Made by a program: the position numbers and the translations under genes
DNA from: an uncultured Candidatus Saccharibacteria bacterium
Lineage (GTDB): Bacteria; Patescibacteriota; Minisyncoccia; Sungbacterales; HO2-52-23
NCBI GenBank assembly: GCA_964358425.1
Contig: CAYHON010000001.1
Span: 21,609 to 72,554, forward strand
DNA: 50,946 bases
Direction: 5' to 3'
The notes under the pieces: generated by a model
Database searches by the model: none
The model's input: only the letters and a program-made list of their open reading frames with translations
Told to the model about the DNA's origin: nothing
Part shown: in pieces, positions 9,975 to 47,627 of the stretch
Numbering within the stretch: the stretch's first letter is position 1
Layout of the letters: each line of letters begins with the position of its first letter

Positions 9975-10046
9975 GGGGGTTAGGCGATTATCGCTTTTTT
10001 TGTTGGGGGATATCCAACAAAAGACCTGCTTAAAAGCTTAATTTCA

Positions 10047-10086
10047 CCCCCACACTTAACGGATTTAAATCCGTTAAGTGTGGGGG
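10047..10086. repeat. Perfect 40 nt palindrome (20 bp arms)
   Basis: CCCCCACACTTAACGGATTT/AAATCCGTTAAGTGTGGGGG pairs at every position. It is followed by TTTA and lies inside the leader of 10261..11295. Confidence 0.9.
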
Positions 10087-10260
10087 TTTACTGATAGGTA
10101 AGCCAATTTACTTGATCGTTCAGAACGATAGAGTGTCAGACAGGAGATCGATTTTATTATTACCATAAGCAAAATAAGGCAGCTTCTTCTCCTAAAGAAA
10201 AACTGTCGTAAAAATAGCATACCTAAGACCTTTTTAATCAAAAGGATTTTTGGTTTAGTC

Positions 10261-17546: not shown

Positions 17547-17987
17547 TTATTTACTCTCTTTGACCGTAAAAACAGAATCAGCCGGCAGGTAGGAGATAAT
17601 CGCATTTTCCCAATATGAGCTGACGAGCGCGGAAGAAATTCTTTTGAATCTGTCAGGGTGTTTATCGCGCCAGGCCTGCAAGGCTTTGTAGATATCCTCC
17701 GAACGATTACCTTGGTTGTAAACAAACACCAGCCCTTTTCCGTCGTCAAAATAAAGTTCCCGCTGTCGTATATTCTCCTTCTTAATTTCCGATTGGAAAT
17801 AAGGTACAACGTATTTAAACACAAGAAAGGCCGAGACAACCAAGACCATGGTAACAATAACACCCGTACGCAACCTTCTTAAATAGCGCGCTTCATCCGC
17901 GGTTACCATAGCAAAGCTCCTTTGTAAAAAATGTCTACTGTTTATAAGTTTTATAAGATCGGCCAAGAACTGCTTACAGCTTAACAC
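17547..17987 (-). CDS. Hypothetical single-pass membrane protein
   Basis: The TM segment is GVIVTMVLVVSAFLVF. The true start may be the internal M27 (17909). Confidence 0.5.
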   Translation of the reverse strand: MLSCKQFLADLIKLINSRHFLQRSFAMVTADEARYLRRLRTGVIVTMVLVVSAFLVFKYVVPYFQSEIKKENIRQRELYFDDGKGLVFVYNQGNRSEDIYKALQAWRDKHPDRFKRISSALVSSYWENAIISYLPADSVFTVKESK

Positions 17988-18014
17988 TCTTGATTGCTTT
18001 AGTCAAAGAAAGTA

Positions 18015-18064
18015 TCCACCCACCAGGGATTGAACCTGGGTCTGCGGATTAAGAGTCCGTAGCT
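18015..18064 (-). pseudogene. tRNA 3' portion (anticodon arm with a CTT loop, T-arm, acceptor 3' strand) with no adjacent 5' half
   Basis: The minus strand reads AGCT-A-CGGA-CTCTTAA-TCCG-C-AGAC-CCAGG-TTCAATC-CCTGG-TGGGTGG-A. Confidence 0.6.
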
Positions 18065-18114
18065 GTTTTGCTTCTCGCAAAACCCCCGGGATTGCTTTTA
18101 TTATATCTCCATTC

Positions 18115-18183
18115 TCCGCCCATCAGGAGTTGAACCTGCAACCTATTAAACTGCGACGTTTACCCCGTATCAAATTTAGCCGG
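18115..18183 (-). pseudogene. tRNA 3' fragment (T-arm plus acceptor 3' strand TGGGCGG-A) preceded by one arm of an inverted repeat
   Basis: The minus strand reads ...GCAGG-TTCAACT-CCTG-A-TGGGCGG-A. No convincing anticodon arm is present. Confidence 0.55.
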
Positions 18184-18256
18184 TCCGTCCCCCGAGAGTC
18201 GAACTCGGAACCGTCGCCTTAAGAGGGCGCTGCTCTGCCAGTTGAGCTAGGGACGG
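18184..18256 (-). tRNA. tRNA-Lys (anticodon CTT), 73 nt, with no encoded CCA
   Basis: It folds by hand into a cloverleaf: CCGTCCC/GGGACGG acceptor, GCTC/GAGC D-stem, loop CTCTTAA, T-arm CCGAG-TTCGACT-CTCGG, discriminator A. Confidence 0.85.
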
Positions 18257-18270
18257 ATAAATTTTGATGA

Positions 18271-18293
18271 GGGGCCAATTGAGCTATGGGCGG
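18271..18293 (-). pseudogene. tRNA 5' fragment (acceptor CCGCCCA, TA, D-stem GCTC, D-loop AATTGG...)
   Basis: It is perfectly complementary to the acceptor 3' strand at 18116-18122. It also pairs with the strand at 18016-18022, using one G-U at position 3:70. Confidence 0.55.
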
Positions 18294-18345
18294 AGATTGG
18301 ATGGGATTTTAGTAGCAATCCCGCGAAACGATAATTAATCGTTTC

Positions 18346-18365
18346 GCCCACTAAGCTATGGGGGC
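18346..18365 (-). pseudogene. Second tRNA 5'-like fragment (GCCCCCA-TA-GCTT-AGTGGGC)
   Basis: It resembles a tRNA 5' end and abuts the toxin stop codon. No good acceptor partner was found in the window. Confidence 0.4.
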
Positions 18366-18634
18366 TATCTGTATATATCTTTTCTGTTGCCTATGTAAAG
18401 AAAATGTATCTTTTGCACTGTTAGGAAACGGAATTTGATTCGGTAATCTTTGTCTATCCAAAAACTCCACACTTCTTCGTGATGCGGCTCAAGTTTTTTG
18501 GTGTGCAATGAAGAATAAAATGGATTCTGACGAAAAAATTTGGTCTTCAGATCAGCTTTCTGGCGGACGGCTTTGGGTAATTTTTGATAGAGTCTGATAA
18601 AAGTTTCAGTAACAGAAATTTCTATCATATTCAT
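18365..18634 (-). CDS. RelE/ParE-superfamily toxin (type II TA)
   Basis: It is an 89 aa basic protein with the KLP..VR...... pattern and the ...W.F.I..DYRI.F.. core typical of the RelE/ParE fold. It lies 7 nt downstream of a small partner ORF. Confidence 0.65.
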   Translation of the reverse strand: MNMIEISVTETFIRLYQKLPKAVRQKADLKTKFFRQNPFYSSLHTKKLEPHHEEVWSFWIDKDYRIKFRFLTVQKIHFLYIGNRKDIYR

Positions 18635-18641
18635 ATGAAAA

Positions 18642-18842
18642 CTAATTTTTTGCGTCTAACTCACGAAGAAATTCTATTTTTCGCGTCTTTCCGCTCTTGG
18701 ACTCTTTTAATGATTTTTTTATGTCCCTAATAAATCCGGCTTGATAAAATCCAAAGACATCAGCAAGCCGCTCCCACTGATCAAGGTTAATTTCTACTTT
18801 AATGGTCTTGGAGTTGGGTTTTTGTATAGTTAAAACAGGCAT
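18642..18842 (-). CDS. Putative antitoxin partner
   Basis: It is a 66 aa ORF immediately upstream of the toxin, and the local region is AT-rich. Confidence 0.5.
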   Translation of the reverse strand: MPVLTIQKPNSKTIKVEINLDQWERLADVFGFYQAGFIRDIKKSLKESKSGKTRKIEFLRELDAKN

Positions 18843-20780: not shown

Positions 20781-20999
20781 GTGATAAAAGAAGGACTCAC
20801 TTTTGACGATGTTCTGCTTCTGCCCAAAAAATCCCGGGTGTATTCGCGCCAAGATGTATCGCTTTATACCAGATTTTCCAAAAATCTGGAGTTATCTGTA
20901 CCTATTGTATCGGCCAATATGGATACGGTCACCGGTGCCCGCATGGCGCGCTTTATGGCGGAGGCCGGAGACATCAAGGAGGGAATGGCGAGGAATTAA
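20781..20999 (+). pseudogene. guaB: N-terminal remnant (about 63 aa) of IMP dehydrogenase GuaB
   Basis: LTFDDVLLLP...VPIVSANMDTVTGARMA..MAEAG matches the GuaB N-terminus. The sequence then diverges and stops, whereas a full GuaB is about 480-490 aa. Confidence 0.75.
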
Positions 21000-21041
21000 A
21001 TGTTACAATTAAAACGCTATAGCGTTCTAATTGTAACATTT
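20998..21041. repeat. 44 nt palindromic element, copy 1 (also a likely bidirectional terminator)
   Basis: AAATGTTACAATTAAAACGCTA/TAGCGTTCTAATTGTAACATTT has one mismatch. It lies between convergent genes. It is nearly identical in its core to 37784-37825. Confidence 0.85.
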
Positions 21042-37783: not shown

Positions 37784-37825
37784 AATGTTACAGATAAAAC
37801 GCTATAGCGTTTTATCTGTAACATT
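37784..37825. repeat. 42 nt perfect palindromic element, copy 2
   Basis: AATGTTACAGATAAAACGCTA/TAGCGTTTTATCTGTAACATT shares the ATGTTACA..TAAAACGCTATAGCGTT.TA..TGTAACAT core with 20998-21041. Confidence 0.9.
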
Positions 37826-47121: not shown

Positions 47122-47130
47122 TTTTTTAGC

Positions 47131-47202
47131 TGCCTCTGGATGGAGTCGAACCATCTTCTGAACTTTATGAGTGTTCCGTTCTAGCCGTTGAACTACAGAG
47201 GC
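47131..47202 (-). tRNA. tRNA with anticodon CAT (elongator Met or Ile2; not initiator-like)
   Basis: The acceptor is GCCTCTG/CAGAGGC, the loop CTCATAA, and the T-arm GATGG-TTCGACT-CCATC. It has no C1-A72 mismatch and no GGG/CCC anticodon stem. Confidence 0.8.
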
Positions 47203-47298
47203 ATACCTCGACTTCTTTTATATAAAGTAACTTATTTTTAAGATTTTGGCAACCAACCTAATATTTACTTTTATCCTTATTTTGTATATAATCTCCAT

Positions 47299-47627
47299 GC
47301 GGGGTAGAGGAGAAGTACCTCGCAAGGCTCATAGTAGAACTGTGACCCATAATGGCAACATTATGCGGAAAAACTTTCTAAATTGCTGGAAAACCCTTAG
47401 AGCCGGATTAGCCACAGCGTAATCGGAAACTTTAAGCGCGAAGGCTAAAAATAATCCGGATTGGGCAATCAGCAGCGAAGCCTTGGCCAAAGGCCAGGTA
47501 ACGTTCAGAGACTATAATGGAAGGTTCCTGCTTTATCCAAAGTTGGAATATGGTATAGTCCATTCCTCCTATAAATAGGGGGTGTAAAAGAACCTTGAGG
47601 CGCCGGTGCAATTCCGGCCCCCGCAAC
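47299..47627 (+). ncRNA. Unassigned structured RNA of about 330 nt
   Basis: A TATAAT box (47287-47292) lies upstream. The 5' GCGGGG pairs with the 3' CCCCGC. Many hairpins are present, including CAUAAUG-GCAA-CAUUAUG, CCUUGGCC-AAA-GGCCAGG and GCCGG-UGCAAUU-CCGGC. An intrinsic terminator follows at 47634-47664. No plausible CDS is present. Confidence 0.6.

What the first reader, a model, noticed from the sequence alone, without database searches (positions are those of the whole stretch)
18015..18365. Concentric arrangement of tRNA halves around an intact tRNA-Lys, bracketed by nested inverted repeats
Read on the minus strand, the order is:
- 5' half A (GCCCCCA-TA-GCTT-AGTGGGC);
- a 10 bp-stem hairpin and a 6 bp hairpin;
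- 5' half B (CCGCCCA-TA-GCTC-AATTGG);
- the intact tRNA-Lys(CTT);
- 3' part B (T-arm + TGGGCGG-A);
- 3' part A (full anticodon arm with a CTT loop, T-arm, TGGGTGG-A).

**Acceptor pairing.** Half B is exactly complementary to the acceptor strand of 3' part B. It also pairs with 3' part A using one G-U.

**Nested inverted repeats.** The intact tRNA is flanked by a roughly 16 bp inverted repeat (plus strand 18163-18178 vs 18258-74). The whole inner block is flanked by a perfect 10 bp inverted repeat (CGGGATTGCT 18087-18096 / AGCAATCCCG 18314-18323).

**Possible reconstituted tRNA.** Joining 5' half B to 3' part A gives an almost complete second tRNA-Lys(CUU) cloverleaf, interrupted in the D-loop by about 200 nt.

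**Interpretations.** Halves followed or preceded by mutually complementary sequences resemble the logic of archaeal split or intron-containing tRNA genes, but here they lie in cis and nested, in a bacterium. Alternatively, these are scars of repeated insertion of tRNA-carrying DNA into tRNA genes. The adjacent AT-rich TA cassette supports a history of mobile-DNA activity at this locus.
Basis: seen in the sequence. Interest (0 to 1): 0.75.

Follow-up and report, generated by a model that had tools for sequence, protein, structure and literature searches.

The report
Nested tRNA-Lys gene replacement scars
One working lysine tRNA gene sits inside the broken remains of two older lysine tRNA genes, most likely because hairpin-shaped DNA insertions carrying their own tRNA copy landed twice in the resident gene; the same pattern recurs in related ultra-small (CPR) bacteria and may mark an undescribed kind of selfish DNA.

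Summary
On the minus strand, one intact tRNA-Lys(CTT) (18256-18184) is surrounded concentrically by 5' and 3' remnants of two other tRNA-Lys(CTT) alleles and by nested inverted repeats. The 471-nt region is identical in four independent assemblies, so it is not a misassembly.

The split-tRNA or intron reading is not supported. The outer genes are decayed, the junctions show no bulge-helix-bulge motif, and an intact gene of the same anticodon sits in the middle.

Each remnant pair matches an intact tRNA-Lys of another Parcubacteria genome, giving three different alleles. Relatives carry fresher versions of the same nest. There the insert is a double-hairpin palindromic element with an intact tRNA at the tip of one arm. 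Cutting it out in silico restores a callable outer tRNA of the same anticodon.

One such element belongs to a multi-copy repeat family. Inside protein genes its copies are stop-free and a multiple of 3 nt long, like Rickettsia palindromic elements. I saw about 20 nests covering eight amino-acid identities, all co-oriented.

How the elements move and acquire the tRNA is unknown. My seven full-text searches found no description.

The parts
18348..18365 (-). 5' remnant (positions 1 to about 18) of tRNA-Lys(CTT) allele A, the oldest layer. Its first base overlaps the stop codon of the upstream ParE-like ORF.
   Evidence: Sequence read. Best match among 122 tRNA-Lys genes is the intact L005 gene at the syntenic locus (local alignment score 15 of a possible 18).
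18323..18347 (-). Hairpin H1 inside the A insert: GCGAAACGAT / TAATT / ATCGTTTCGC, a 10-bp perfect stem.
   Evidence: I7; formed in the fold.
18314..18323 (-). 5' arm (CGGGATTGCT) of the 10-bp perfect inverted repeat that encloses the whole B unit.
   Evidence: I5; paired in the MFE structure.
18294..18301 (-). Leader TCCAATCT. It extends the acceptor helix of B by pairing with trailer 18115-18108.
   Evidence: (I2): 16 nt, 94% complementary.
18275..18293 (-). 5' remnant (positions 1-19) of tRNA-Lys(CTT) allele B, the middle layer, broken in the D loop.
   Evidence: 19/19 identical to the intact Tagabacteria tRNA-Lys at L219:3363-3435. This 5' sequence type is a common Parcubacteria Lys allele.
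18257..18274 (-). 5' arm (CCCCTCATCAAAATTTAT) of the hairpin that carries the intact tRNA.
   Evidence: I1, I6. Read by eye from the sequences, it resembles the L209 arm CCCCGCACTAAAATTTT, with a compensatory swap.
18184..18256 (-). Intact tRNA-Lys(CTT), allele C. It is the only functional-looking gene of the locus.
   Evidence: ARAGORN. Rfam RF00005 57.9 bits, full length. Alignment score 71 of a possible 73 (one mismatch each) against the inner tRNAs of L081 and L086.
18163..18183 (-). 3' arm of the hairpin around C: a CCGGC bulge followed by TAAATTTGATACGGGG.
   Evidence: I1, I6. 18/20 identical to L209.
18144..18162 (-). Linker with a small TAAAC/GTTTA hairpin. This is where the less decayed relative L209 has a second full hairpin.
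   Evidence: Sequences.
18115..18143 (-). 3' remnant of allele B: variable-region end, T arm, acceptor strand TGGGCGG and discriminator A.
   Evidence: 28/29 identical to the same L219 tRNA that matches B5'. Direct repeat D3.
18108..18114 (-). Trailer GAATGGA, which pairs with the B leader.
   Evidence: I2.
18087..18096 (-). 3' arm (AGCAATCCCG) of the 10-bp perfect inverted repeat enclosing the B unit.
   Evidence: I5.
18066..18082 (-). Hairpin H3 (TTTTGC GAGAA GCAAAA) at the 3' end of the A insert.
   Evidence: Formed in the fold.
18015..18065 (-). 3' remnant of allele A: D-stem 3' strand, anticodon arm with CTT, T arm, acceptor strand TGGGTGG and discriminator A.
   Evidence: Partial Rfam tRNA hit, 21.8 bits. 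Best match is the intact L005 tRNA-Lys, alignment score 42 of 51. A5'+A3' is called tRNA-Lys(ctt) by ARAGORN.

Best explanation
The locus is a three-layer nest left by two successive insertional replacements of the tRNA-Lys(CUU) gene.

**Shown**
- Only the central gene (allele C, 18256-18184) is intact.
- Around it lie the two ends of allele B, a common Parcubacteria Lys allele that has now lost roughly positions 20-44.
- Around B lie the two ends of allele A, the type that is intact at the same locus in a relative.
- B and C are each bracketed by inverted repeats that prolong their acceptor stems.

**Inferred order of events**
1. Allele A was the resident gene.
2. A hairpin-forming insert carrying tRNA B at the tip of an arm landed in A's D loop. 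This killed A and replaced its function.
3. A second hairpin insert carrying tRNA C landed in B's D loop.
4. The dead outer copies then decayed through substitutions and internal deletions.

**Inferred expression**
The inner gene is co-oriented with the dead genes, so it is probably transcribed from the resident upstream signals and released by the ordinary pre-tRNA 5' and 3' end-processing nucleases (RNase P and a 3' nuclease). The flanking helix may isolate its folding from the complementary outer halves, or may serve as a processing stem.

**The vehicle**
The inserts belong to the same kind of DNA as the double-hairpin palindromic repeats of CPR genomes. In relatives these are multi-copy, insert without target duplication, and are tolerated in-frame inside protein genes, much like Rickettsia palindromic elements. 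An insertion into an essential single-copy tRNA gene can survive only if it brings a working copy of that tRNA in the right orientation. That condition would explain why inner and outer genes always share identity and direction.

**Unknown**
The enzyme or process that moves these elements, and how a tRNA comes to sit in the hairpin tip.
For: **The window itself**
- One intact tRNA, and no intron-type call.
- Nested helices are present and fold far better than shuffles, z = -5.1.
- Three distinct alleles. A5'/A3' best match the intact tRNA-Lys of L005 at the syntenic locus. B5' (19/19) and B3' (28/29) best match one and the same intact Tagabacteria tRNA-Lys. C scores 71 of 73 (one mismatch) against the inner tRNAs of L081 and L086.
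- The B-type 5' sequence starts 52 intact Lys(CTT) and 32 intact Lys(TTT) genes among 122 hits.
- The region is identical in four independent assemblies.

**Relatives**
- Synteny Ala/Pro - CCA-adding enzyme - Arg - Lys - S15 - PNPase is conserved, and several relatives have a plain tRNA-Lys here.
- L002, L081, L086 and L089 carry the same inner tRNA nested in an outer tRNA-Lys.
- Removing the insert in silico restores an ARAGORN-callable outer tRNA of the same anticodon in L089 Lys, L002 Lys, L140 Val and L176 Met at default settings, and in L089 Arg at 90%.
- The window's inner hairpin resembles that of L209, which carries tRNA-Lys(TTT) inside another Lys gene and still has the second hairpin. 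This is read by eye; only the 3' arm has a tool-measured match (18/20).

**The repeat family**
- The L002/L089 insert belongs to a repeat family of the form TCCCGA..GCATCGAGGATCCTCGA..TCGGGA, with 25 canonical copies in CPR contigs and up to three in one 8-kb stretch.
- Its copies inside ORFs are stop-free and 48 or 66 nt long (four copies, by my ORF-span test); two further copies of 42 and 54 nt lie in stop-free stretches too short for that test. Copies outside ORFs are 48-86 nt and include multiples of 3.

**The pattern across tRNAs**
- Of 403 tRNAs, about 15 have a leader/trailer complementarity score of 10 or more (local alignment, so not always contiguous with the acceptor stem), against a bulk at 4-6.
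- Apart from L233 and L306, which show no flanking remnants (L306 lies at a contig end), the high scorers sit inside remnants of a tRNA of the same amino acid, same orientation: Lys, Arg, Pro, Val, Ala, Met, Ile, Cys. I read this by eye from the sequences.
- No copy of the repeat family lying in an ORF or intergenic DNA carries a tRNA.
Against: - The window's own spacer and hairpin sequences have no second copy in the window or in about 2.9 Mb of related loci, apart from an 18/20 match to L209.
- The window lacks the canonical repeat core. Calling its inserts members of a mobile family therefore rests on architecture and one homologue, not on copy number.
- A5' (GCCCCCA) pairs poorly with A3' (TGGGTGG), while B5' pairs with it perfectly. 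The assignment of A3' to layer A rests on position and on similarity to L005.
- No tRNA-bearing element was seen outside a cognate tRNA gene, so no free donor copy is known. That fits in-situ acquisition or spread by recombination at least as well as transposition.
- No transposase, integrase or other candidate enzyme is linked to the elements. They are absent from the viral collection.
- Compensatory changes in the flanking helices (window vs L209; L002 vs L089) could mean an RNA-level function that I cannot test.
- Some outer genes (L089, L176) are still perfect cloverleaves. That could be recency, but also retained function.
Confidence: 0.72

Rival explanations
1. RNA-level split or intron-containing tRNA. 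The nested helices bring the halves together, the inner tRNA is cut out, and the outer halves are ligated or act as a two-piece tRNA to give additional functional tRNA-Lys molecules.
For: - Halves are followed or preceded by complementary sequences.
- B5'+A3' and A5'+A3' give ARAGORN-callable cloverleaves.
- In young nests of relatives the outer tRNA is perfect once the insert is removed.
- The helices show compensatory changes between loci.
Against: - B has no anticodon arm, and A has two acceptor mismatches plus a 3-bp D stem.
- The predicted fold shows no bulge-helix-bulge motif.
- No intron or ribozyme family matches.
- Every nest contains a complete tRNA for the same amino acid, which would be pointless if the outer gene still worked.
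- Older nests decay.
- Copies of the same repeat family inside protein genes are stop-free and a multiple of 3 nt long, as expected if they are translated rather than spliced.
Confidence: 0.04
2. Classical att-site scars. Integrase-bearing islands or prophages integrated repeatedly into the tRNA-Lys gene and were later deleted, leaving tRNA fragments.
For: - 3' fragments of tRNA genes downstream of an intact gene are the textbook signature of such integration (established knowledge; tRNA gene fragments in prokaryotes are discussed in PMC9897764, which I found but did not read).
- The Arg-Lys spacer is a variable hotspot carrying TA modules and other cargo.
Against: - 5' fragments are present as well, in mirror order.
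- The 3' fragments are not copies of the intact gene's 3' end. They belong to other alleles.
- Each unit is bracketed by inverted rather than direct repeats.
- No integrase gene was noted among the ORFs of 14-23 kb; only five of them were scanned against Pfam.
- In relatives the complete insert is only about 100-250 nt and its removal restores the outer gene exactly.
Confidence: 0.07
3. Local duplication and decay. Tandem or partial duplications of the resident tRNA gene arose by slippage or long target duplications, followed by hairpin insertions and deletions, with no imported tRNA.
For: - Some relatives do show this pattern. L240 and L288 have an upstream pseudo-copy that shares the gene's own upstream flank.
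- L051 has a tandem repeat of a 5'-half-plus-spacer unit.
- The T-loop inserts in relatives duplicate the gene's own 3' end.
Against: - In the window the three layers are different alleles, each closest to a different foreign intact gene.
- B3' differs from C's 3' end at about 10 of 29 positions.
- Inner and outer tRNAs also differ strongly in L089 and L176.
Confidence: 0.1
4. Assembly artefact: a chimeric join of reads from several tRNA-Lys genes or strains.
For: tRNA genes are repeated and conserved, which can confuse assemblers of low-coverage metagenomes.
Against: - The 471-nt sequence is identical in contigs from three ENA assemblies, and over 424 nt in a Logan contig.
- The same architecture is present in MAGs from unrelated projects.
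Confidence: 0.01

Closest known systems
tRNA-gene-targeting integrative elements (temperate phages, ICEs, genomic islands using tyrosine integrases)
   Same: They insert inside a tRNA gene and keep the cell alive by supplying a replacement for the displaced part. The orphaned tRNA fragment is left behind, and repeated events stack up fragments.
   Different: - Those elements replace only the 3' part at an att crossover, leave direct repeats, are kilobases long and encode an integrase.
- Here a whole tRNA is supplied inside an insert of about 100-300 nt bounded by inverted repeats, and both 5' and 3' orphans remain.
- Break points lie in the D loop, D stem or anticodon arm.
- No integrase is present.
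   Same: Short, multi-copy, hairpin-forming selfish DNA of unknown mobility mechanism. In the relatives studied here it inserts without evident target duplication. Copies inside protein genes are stop-free and a multiple of 3 nt long. It also hits RNA genes.
   Different: - None of those families is known, to my knowledge, to carry a functional tRNA in a hairpin arm or to replace the gene it disrupts.
- The window's own hairpins are single-copy and diverged, so membership is shown only for relatives.
Archaeal intron-containing, split and permuted tRNA genes (BHB motif, EndA endonuclease, RtcB ligase)
   Same: tRNA halves lie next to complementary sequences, and the interruptions occur at non-canonical positions such as the D loop.
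   Different: - This is a bacterium.
- There is no BHB motif.
- The outer genes are decayed.
- An intact gene makes splicing unnecessary.
Dada DNA transposons of eukaryotes (PMC8869645)
   Same: They insert specifically inside tRNA and other small RNA genes.
   Different: Dada encodes a transposase, makes 6-7 bp target duplications, and relies on the targets being multicopy rather than bringing a replacement.

Membership tests
Archaeal-type intron-containing or split tRNA | Bulge-helix-bulge motif (3-nt bulge, 4-bp helix, 3-nt bulge) at both exon-intron junctions | tested here: not met
   The MFE and centroid structures show continuous leader/trailer helices. The sequences at junctions 18348|18347, 18066|18065 and 18275|18274 are not mutually complementary in a BHB arrangement. 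This was checked by inspection only, not with a dedicated BHB scan.
Archaeal-type intron-containing or split tRNA | Joined exons give a canonical, complete cloverleaf | tested here: inconclusive
   A5'+A3' and B5'+A3' are called tRNA-Lys(ctt) by ARAGORN at a 95% threshold, with a 3-bp D stem. A has two acceptor mismatches. B5'+B3' lacks the anticodon arm entirely.
Archaeal-type intron-containing or split tRNA | Splicing endonuclease and RNA ligase encoded in the genome | not testable with these tools
   Only a 51-kb window is available, so the full gene content is unknown.
Group I intron in a tRNA gene | Match to the group I catalytic core within the interrupted tRNA | tested here: not met
   No Rfam hit in 17900-18500 even at E<=10. 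The same search does find a true group I intron elsewhere in the window.
Integrase-mediated tRNA att-site scars | The downstream fragment is a direct repeat of the 3' end of the intact gene (attL/attR core) | tested here: not met
   B3' and A3' belong to other alleles than C. By eye from the sequences, B3' differs from C's 3' end at about 10 of 29 positions.
Integrase-mediated tRNA att-site scars | Integrase or recombinase gene, or island cargo, between the repeats | tested here: not met
   The spaces between fragments are 20-70 nt. The neighbouring ORFs I scanned are a ParE-like toxin (below Pfam's cut-off), a partner ORF and a downstream ORF with no Pfam hit, the CCA-adding enzyme and an NYN-domain protein; S15 and PNPase are annotated in the matching contigs.
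RPE-like / double-hairpin palindromic repeat | Multi-copy family with a conserved core | tested here: inconclusive
   Met for the insert of relatives L002 and L089: 25 canonical copies in CPR contigs. Not met for the window: it has no canonical core and no second copy of its spacers. One homologous hairpin exists in L209.
RPE-like / double-hairpin palindromic repeat | Copies inside protein genes are in frame, stop-free and a multiple of 3 nt long | tested here: met
   In relatives only. L123 and L162 (66 nt, translated as ..PDAKxIEDPRF..NRD) and L204 and L196 (48 nt) pass my ORF-span test. L156 (54 nt) and L152 (42 nt) are also multiples of 3 but did not pass it. Copies outside ORFs are 48-86 nt and include multiples of 3.
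RPE-like / double-hairpin palindromic repeat | Precise insertion: removing the element restores the target, with no target duplication | tested here: met
   In relatives, outer tRNAs are restored for L089, L002, L140 and L176 (default ARAGORN) and for L089 Arg (90%). In the window the outer genes are too decayed for an exact test; A5'+A3' is callable.

The most novel reading that the evidence does not exclude
CPR/Patescibacteria harbour an undescribed class of selfish DNA: small double-hairpin elements that carry a complete tRNA gene at the tip of one arm. They establish themselves inside the host's cognate, single-copy tRNA gene and become indispensable by replacing the gene they destroy, in an addiction-like way. 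They can be superseded by the next such element, which produces Russian-doll loci like this one and drives turnover of tRNA alleles between lineages. The perfect association seen here (a tRNA only in copies that interrupt a tRNA gene, always co-oriented and always for the same amino acid) would then reflect either cognate-gene homing through the conserved tRNA halves or in-situ capture of a tRNA at the hairpin loop.
Probability: 0.4. Interest if true: 0.8.

Novelty: new variant of a known kind. Interest (0 to 1): 0.6.

Why it matters
If the reading holds, essential tRNA genes in streamlined CPR genomes are repeatedly overwritten by tiny hairpin cassettes that bring their own tRNA.

- **A new selfish strategy.** It would join two known ones: target restoration by integrative elements, and palindromic in-frame insertions of the RPE type. 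The scale is about 100-250 nt with no encoded enzyme.
- **An explanation for allele diversity.** It would account for the very different tRNA-Lys alleles found at one syntenic locus in close relatives.
- **A source of annotation noise.** It would also explain tRNA fragments and pseudo-tRNAs that confuse annotation of these genomes.
- **A tractable question.** It asks how palindromic elements move and capture cargo, which has stayed unresolved for RPEs and, as far as I recall, for mitochondrial hairpin elements.

For this window alone the practical message is simple: one functional tRNA-Lys(CUU) gene and four tRNA fragments that should not be annotated as genes.

Tried and rejected
- **ARAGORN with intron options.** Only the central gene was found. 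At an 80% threshold a spurious 'tRNA-Arg(acg)' appears over 3' part A.
- **Rfam at E<=10 on the region.** Nothing but tRNA and tRNA-antisense look-alikes.
- **Rfam on the related inserts.** No family for the T-loop inserts of L008 and L021, nor for the repeat-flanked element in L073.
- **Canonical repeat core in the window.** GAGGATCCTC and the TCCCGAT..ATCGGGA ends are absent.
- **Other copies of the window's spacer sequences.** None, except an 18/20 match to L209.
- **Metagenome scan for the window's exact junction.** 0 hits. The second scan, for the inner tRNA, gave 2 hits, one of which (L209) was useful.
- **Viral contigs scanned for the repeat core.** Only 2 chance hits.
- **Exact-protein look-up of the downstream ORF.** My start choice was not on record. 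S15 and the toxin worked.
- **Retro-copy of a mature tRNA as the source of the inner gene.** No encoded CCA follows the inner tRNAs. Some have C or CC after position 73, as ordinary genes of these genomes do, so there is no support.
- **Two flanking palindromic elements forming a composite.** The expected extra outer arms are not present (L176).
- **Fold-back priming from the acceptor stem as the origin of the flanking helix.** In L089 and L002 the arm is part of a pre-existing repeat, not a copy of the leader.
- **Seven full-text literature searches**. I recognised no description of nested tRNA genes or of this repeat family in CPR bacteria.
Full report
**1. What is in the window**

All features below lie on the minus strand.

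ARAGORN finds one tRNA in the finding's interval, tRNA-Lys(CTT) at 18182-18256. Rfam scores it 57.9 bits over the full model at 18184-18256.

| Piece | Sequence / description | Coordinates |
|---|---|---|
| 5' half A | GCCCCCATAGCTTAGTGG | 18365-18348 |
| Hairpin | 10-bp stem | 18347-18323 |
| 5' half B | CCGCCCATAGCTCAATTGG | 18293-18275 |
| Intact gene | tRNA-Lys(CTT) | 18256-18184 |
| 3' part B | T arm + TGGGCGG + A | 18143-18115 |
| 3' part A | D-stem 3' strand, CTT anticodon arm, T arm, TGGGTGG + A | 18065-18015 |

3' part A gives a sub-threshold Rfam tRNA hit of 21.8 bits, E=0.053.

The repeat finder gives:
- the perfect 10-bp inverted repeat, 18314-18323 / 18087-18096;
- an imperfect repeat around the intact tRNA;

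As RNA, the 361 nt fold into exactly these nested helices at -140.3 kcal/mol, with z = -5.1 and 0 of 100 shuffles as stable.

ARAGORN in intron modes finds no further gene. Artificially joined A5'+A3' and B5'+A3' are both called tRNA-Lys(ctt). The first has G1.G72 and C3.T70 mismatches; the second has a clean acceptor stem with one G.U.

**2. It is not an artefact**

The S15 protein and the toxin ORF of the window are encoded on contigs from several Hainich groundwater samples. Minus-strand 18420-17950 is 100% identical over 471 nt in contigs from ERZ1292638, ERZ1292640 and ERZ1292635. It is also identical over the 424 nt available in a Logan contig of ERR3858133.

**3. Organism and locus**

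The PNPase of the window is at most 73% identical to those of Parcubacteria (CPR) MAGs, Sungbacteria-like. The gene order Ala/Pro, CCA-adding enzyme, tRNA-Arg(TCG), tRNA-Lys(CTT), S15, NYN protein, PNPase is conserved.

In some relatives Arg and Lys are 6-34 nt apart. In others the spacer holds unrelated cargo of 0.4-1.2 kb. In the window it holds a two-gene cassette whose second ORF is ParE-like only below Pfam's cut-off.

**4. The fragments are three different alleles**

I compared each fragment with 122 tRNA-Lys genes from related loci.
- **A5' and A3'** both match best the intact tRNA-Lys(CTT) at the syntenic position in L005 (alignment score 15 of a possible 18 for A5', and 42 of 51 for A3').
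- **B5' (19/19) and B3' (28/29)** both match best one and the same intact gene, in a Tagabacteria MAG (L219). There it is an ordinary gene directly after a tRNA-Arg, with no flanking helix.
- **C** scores 71 of a possible 73 (one mismatch) against the inner tRNAs of L081 and L086.

The B-type 5' sequence is a common allele. Of 122 pattern hits, 52 start intact Lys(CTT) genes and 32 start intact Lys(TTT) genes.

So A and B are remnants of once ordinary genes. B has lost roughly positions 20-44. A carries two acceptor-breaking substitutions. B5' pairs with A3' simply because the two alleles have similar acceptor stems.

**5. Relatives show younger versions of the nest**

L002, L081, L086 and L089 carry the same inner tRNA inside an outer tRNA-Lys (alignment).

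In L089 the outer gene is complete. A 143-nt insert sits between G24 and C25, and its removal gives a tRNA that ARAGORN calls at default settings. The same holds for:
- L002 Lys, after also removing a 30-nt pair of mini-hairpins from the anticodon loop;
- L140 Val;
- L176 Met, which has two inserts;
- L089 Arg, at a 90% threshold.

A metagenome contig from the same aquifer (L209) has a tRNA-Lys(TTT) inside another Lys gene. By my reading of the sequences, its hairpin resembles the window's:
- window: CCCCTCATCAAAATTTAT .. AAATTTGATACGGGG TAAACGTCGC
- L209: CCCCGCACTAAAATTTT .. AAATTTAGTACGGGG TAAATGCCGC

There is a compensatory ATC/GAT to ACT/AGT swap between them. L209 also has a second hairpin with the same stem base, which the window has lost.

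**6. The vehicle**

The L002/L089 insert has the form TCCCGA(T/C)G - arm X - C(A/G)TCGAGGATCCTCGA - arm Y - TCGGGA. It is two adjacent hairpins with the same stem base, or alternatively a four-way junction.

A scan for its 17-nt core returned many chance hits in GC-rich genomes. It also returned 25 canonical copies in CPR contigs, up to three in one 8-kb stretch.

Most copies have short hairpin arms and lie between genes. Copies inside ORFs are stop-free and in frame: L123 (an apparently RpoC-like gene, by eye) and L162 have 66 nt translated as ..PDAKxIEDPRF..NRD, and L204 and L196 have 48 nt. L156 (54 nt) and L152 (42 nt) are also multiples of 3 but lie in stop-free stretches too short for my ORF-span test. 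Copies outside ORFs are 48-86 nt long and include multiples of 3. That is the behaviour of Rickettsia palindromic elements, translated rather than spliced.

Copies that interrupt a tRNA gene (L002, L089, L140, L144, L176) always contain an intact tRNA of the same anticodon, at the tip of one arm or in an adjoining arm. No copy outside a tRNA gene carries one.

The window has no canonical copy of this family, and its spacers are single-copy. Its hairpins are therefore a different or decayed relative.

**7. Generality**

Among 403 tRNAs in about 2.9 Mb of fetched loci, leader/trailer complementarity (a local alignment score) clusters at 4-6. About 15 tRNAs score 10 or more.

On inspection, apart from L233 and L306, which show no flanking remnants, the high scorers lie inside remnants of a tRNA for the same amino acid, in the same orientation: Lys, Arg, Pro, Val, Ala, Met, Ile and Cys. 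In most of the cases I read, N-1 pairs with N73, so the helix continues the acceptor stem. I counted about 20 nests; this count is by eye, not from a tool.

One outermost remnant in L005 reads Pro(TGG) around a Pro(CGG) gene. Break points fall in the D loop, the D stem, the anticodon stem or the anticodon loop.

Inner and outer genes are usually clearly different alleles (L089, L176, the window). The inner gene is therefore imported rather than a local copy. A few tRNAs (L233, L236, L237) have a short flanking helix (score 8-10.5) but no visible remnants.

**8. Interpretation**

The best-supported account is sequential insertional replacement.
1. Resident allele A was hit in its D loop by a hairpin insert bearing B.
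2. B was hit in its D loop by a hairpin insert bearing C.
3. The dead copies then decayed.

Insertion into an essential single-copy tRNA gene is tolerable only if the insert supplies the same tRNA in the sense orientation, where it can use the resident transcription signals. That selection filter explains the invariable identity and co-orientation.

What remains unexplained is how a tRNA comes to lie at the centre of a palindromic arm, and how the cassette reaches the cognate gene. I can think of three routes:
- transposition plus selection;
- spread by recombination through the conserved outer halves (the D arm of L089's outer gene looks chimeric, GCTT..GAGC);
- in-situ capture at a hairpin loop.

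The absence of free tRNA-bearing copies argues against simple transposition. No enzyme candidate emerged, and the family is absent from viral contigs.

**9. Rivals**

- **Split or intron tRNA.** Disfavoured by the decay of the outer genes, the lack of a BHB motif, the lack of any intron family hit and the redundant intact gene.
- **Integrase att scars.** These would explain the 3' fragments only. They predict direct repeats identical to the live gene, which are not seen.
- **Local duplication.** It occurs in some relatives (L240, L288, L051), but it does not fit three foreign-like alleles.
- **Misassembly.** Excluded.

**10. Novelty**

Seven full-text searches returned nothing on nested tRNA genes or this repeat family in CPR bacteria. 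The nearest concepts are tRNA-restoring integrative elements, RPE-type palindromic elements, and Dada transposons (PMC8869645). I class it as a new variant of known kinds. For this window alone it is a set of pseudogene scars. As a recurring pattern it is worth a dedicated study.

Noticed in passing
window 47298-47627 (+): A tRNA-Met(CAT) gene interrupted in the anticodon loop by a 258-nt group I intron. Rfam Intron_gpI scores 83.3 bits at 47323-47582. ARAGORN calls the gene only in intron mode. It lies next to an intron-less tRNA-Met(CAT) on the other strand (47129-47203).
   Followed up: partly
L002:4846-4990, L008:3448-3600, L021:1214-1365, L023 (downstream of 2926, minus strand), L074:707-860, L090 (after 5817), L240: A second recurrent pattern in relatives. 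A complete tRNA (Arg, Lys, Ser) is followed by a 100-190-nt insert and then by a duplicate of the gene's own T-loop-to-3'-end (17-22 nt; in L240 the downstream flank is duplicated too). The inserts contain a stretch complementary to the host tRNA's T loop and T stem that changes with the host. They also share motifs (ccggagc, ggggtcgcg, gttgtgacc). No Rfam family matches. Unexplained.
   Followed up: partly
L123:608-673, L162:1525-1590, L204:2975-3022, L196:6367-6414: Copies of the TCCCGA..GAGGATCCTC..TCGGGA double-hairpin repeat lie inside long ORFs, for example an apparently RpoC-like gene (judged by eye). They are in frame and stop-free, and add 16-22 residues (..PDAKxIEDPRF..NRD). This looks like a CPR counterpart of Rickettsia palindromic elements.
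   Followed up: partly
L002 (anticodon loop of the outer tRNA-Lys), L081, L140, L240, L288: Very small 15-16-nt hairpins of the form TCC-stem-loop-stem-GGA are inserted singly or in pairs into dead tRNA copies. Examples are TCCGCCnnnGGCGGA, TCAGCCnnnGGCTGA and TCCGTCAGCTGACGGA.
   Followed up: no
L084 (CAZVYH010000009.1), around 2450-2560: A masked run of about 115 N lies exactly inside the anticodon loop of a tRNA-Ile(TAT) gene. Some insertion there has been hidden in the collection. L266 has a nested tRNA-Ile(TAT) at the same place.
   Followed up: no
window 20998-21041 and 37784-37825: Two copies of a 42-44-nt near-perfect palindrome with shared arms (AATGTTACAnnTAAAACGCTA / TAGCGTTnTAnnTGTAACATT). 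Possibly a REP-like repeat or a shared operator or terminator.
   Followed up: no
window 10046-10087: A perfect 42-nt palindrome: ACCCCCACACTTAACGGATTTAAATCCGTTAAGTGTGGGGGT.
   Followed up: no
window 18365-18842 (-): A two-ORF cassette lies between tRNA-Arg and the nest. The 89-aa ORF is ParE-like only below Pfam's cut-off (18.7 vs 24.4 bits), and the 66-aa partner has no hit. Its stop codon overlaps the first base of 5' half A. L005 has what looks, from its sequence alone, like a different RelE/RelB-type pair (not scanned against Pfam) at the same spot.
   Followed up: partly
window 20781-20999 (+): A 72-aa ORF that, by my reading (no search was run), resembles the N-terminus of IMP dehydrogenase (..LTFDDVLLLP..SANMDTV..) and then stops. 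It is probably a truncated gene remnant, ending at one of the palindromes above.
   Followed up: no
L030:2347-2497, L066:7230-7374, L073:3290-3452, L089:1065-1197: Elements of about 130-160 nt bounded by 14-20-bp inverted repeats (CCCCGCnCTAATTTTGC .. GCAAAATTAGnGCGGGG). In L066 and L073 they lie upstream of pnp. They are GC-rich and look structured inside. Rfam finds no family in the one locus searched (L073).
   Followed up: partly
L001:2290-2338: Just upstream of the plain tRNA-Lys(CTT) of the closest relative lies GGACTCTTAAGCAAG. It looks like a leftover anticodon-arm fragment of another Lys allele, which hints at an older replacement there too.
   Followed up: no
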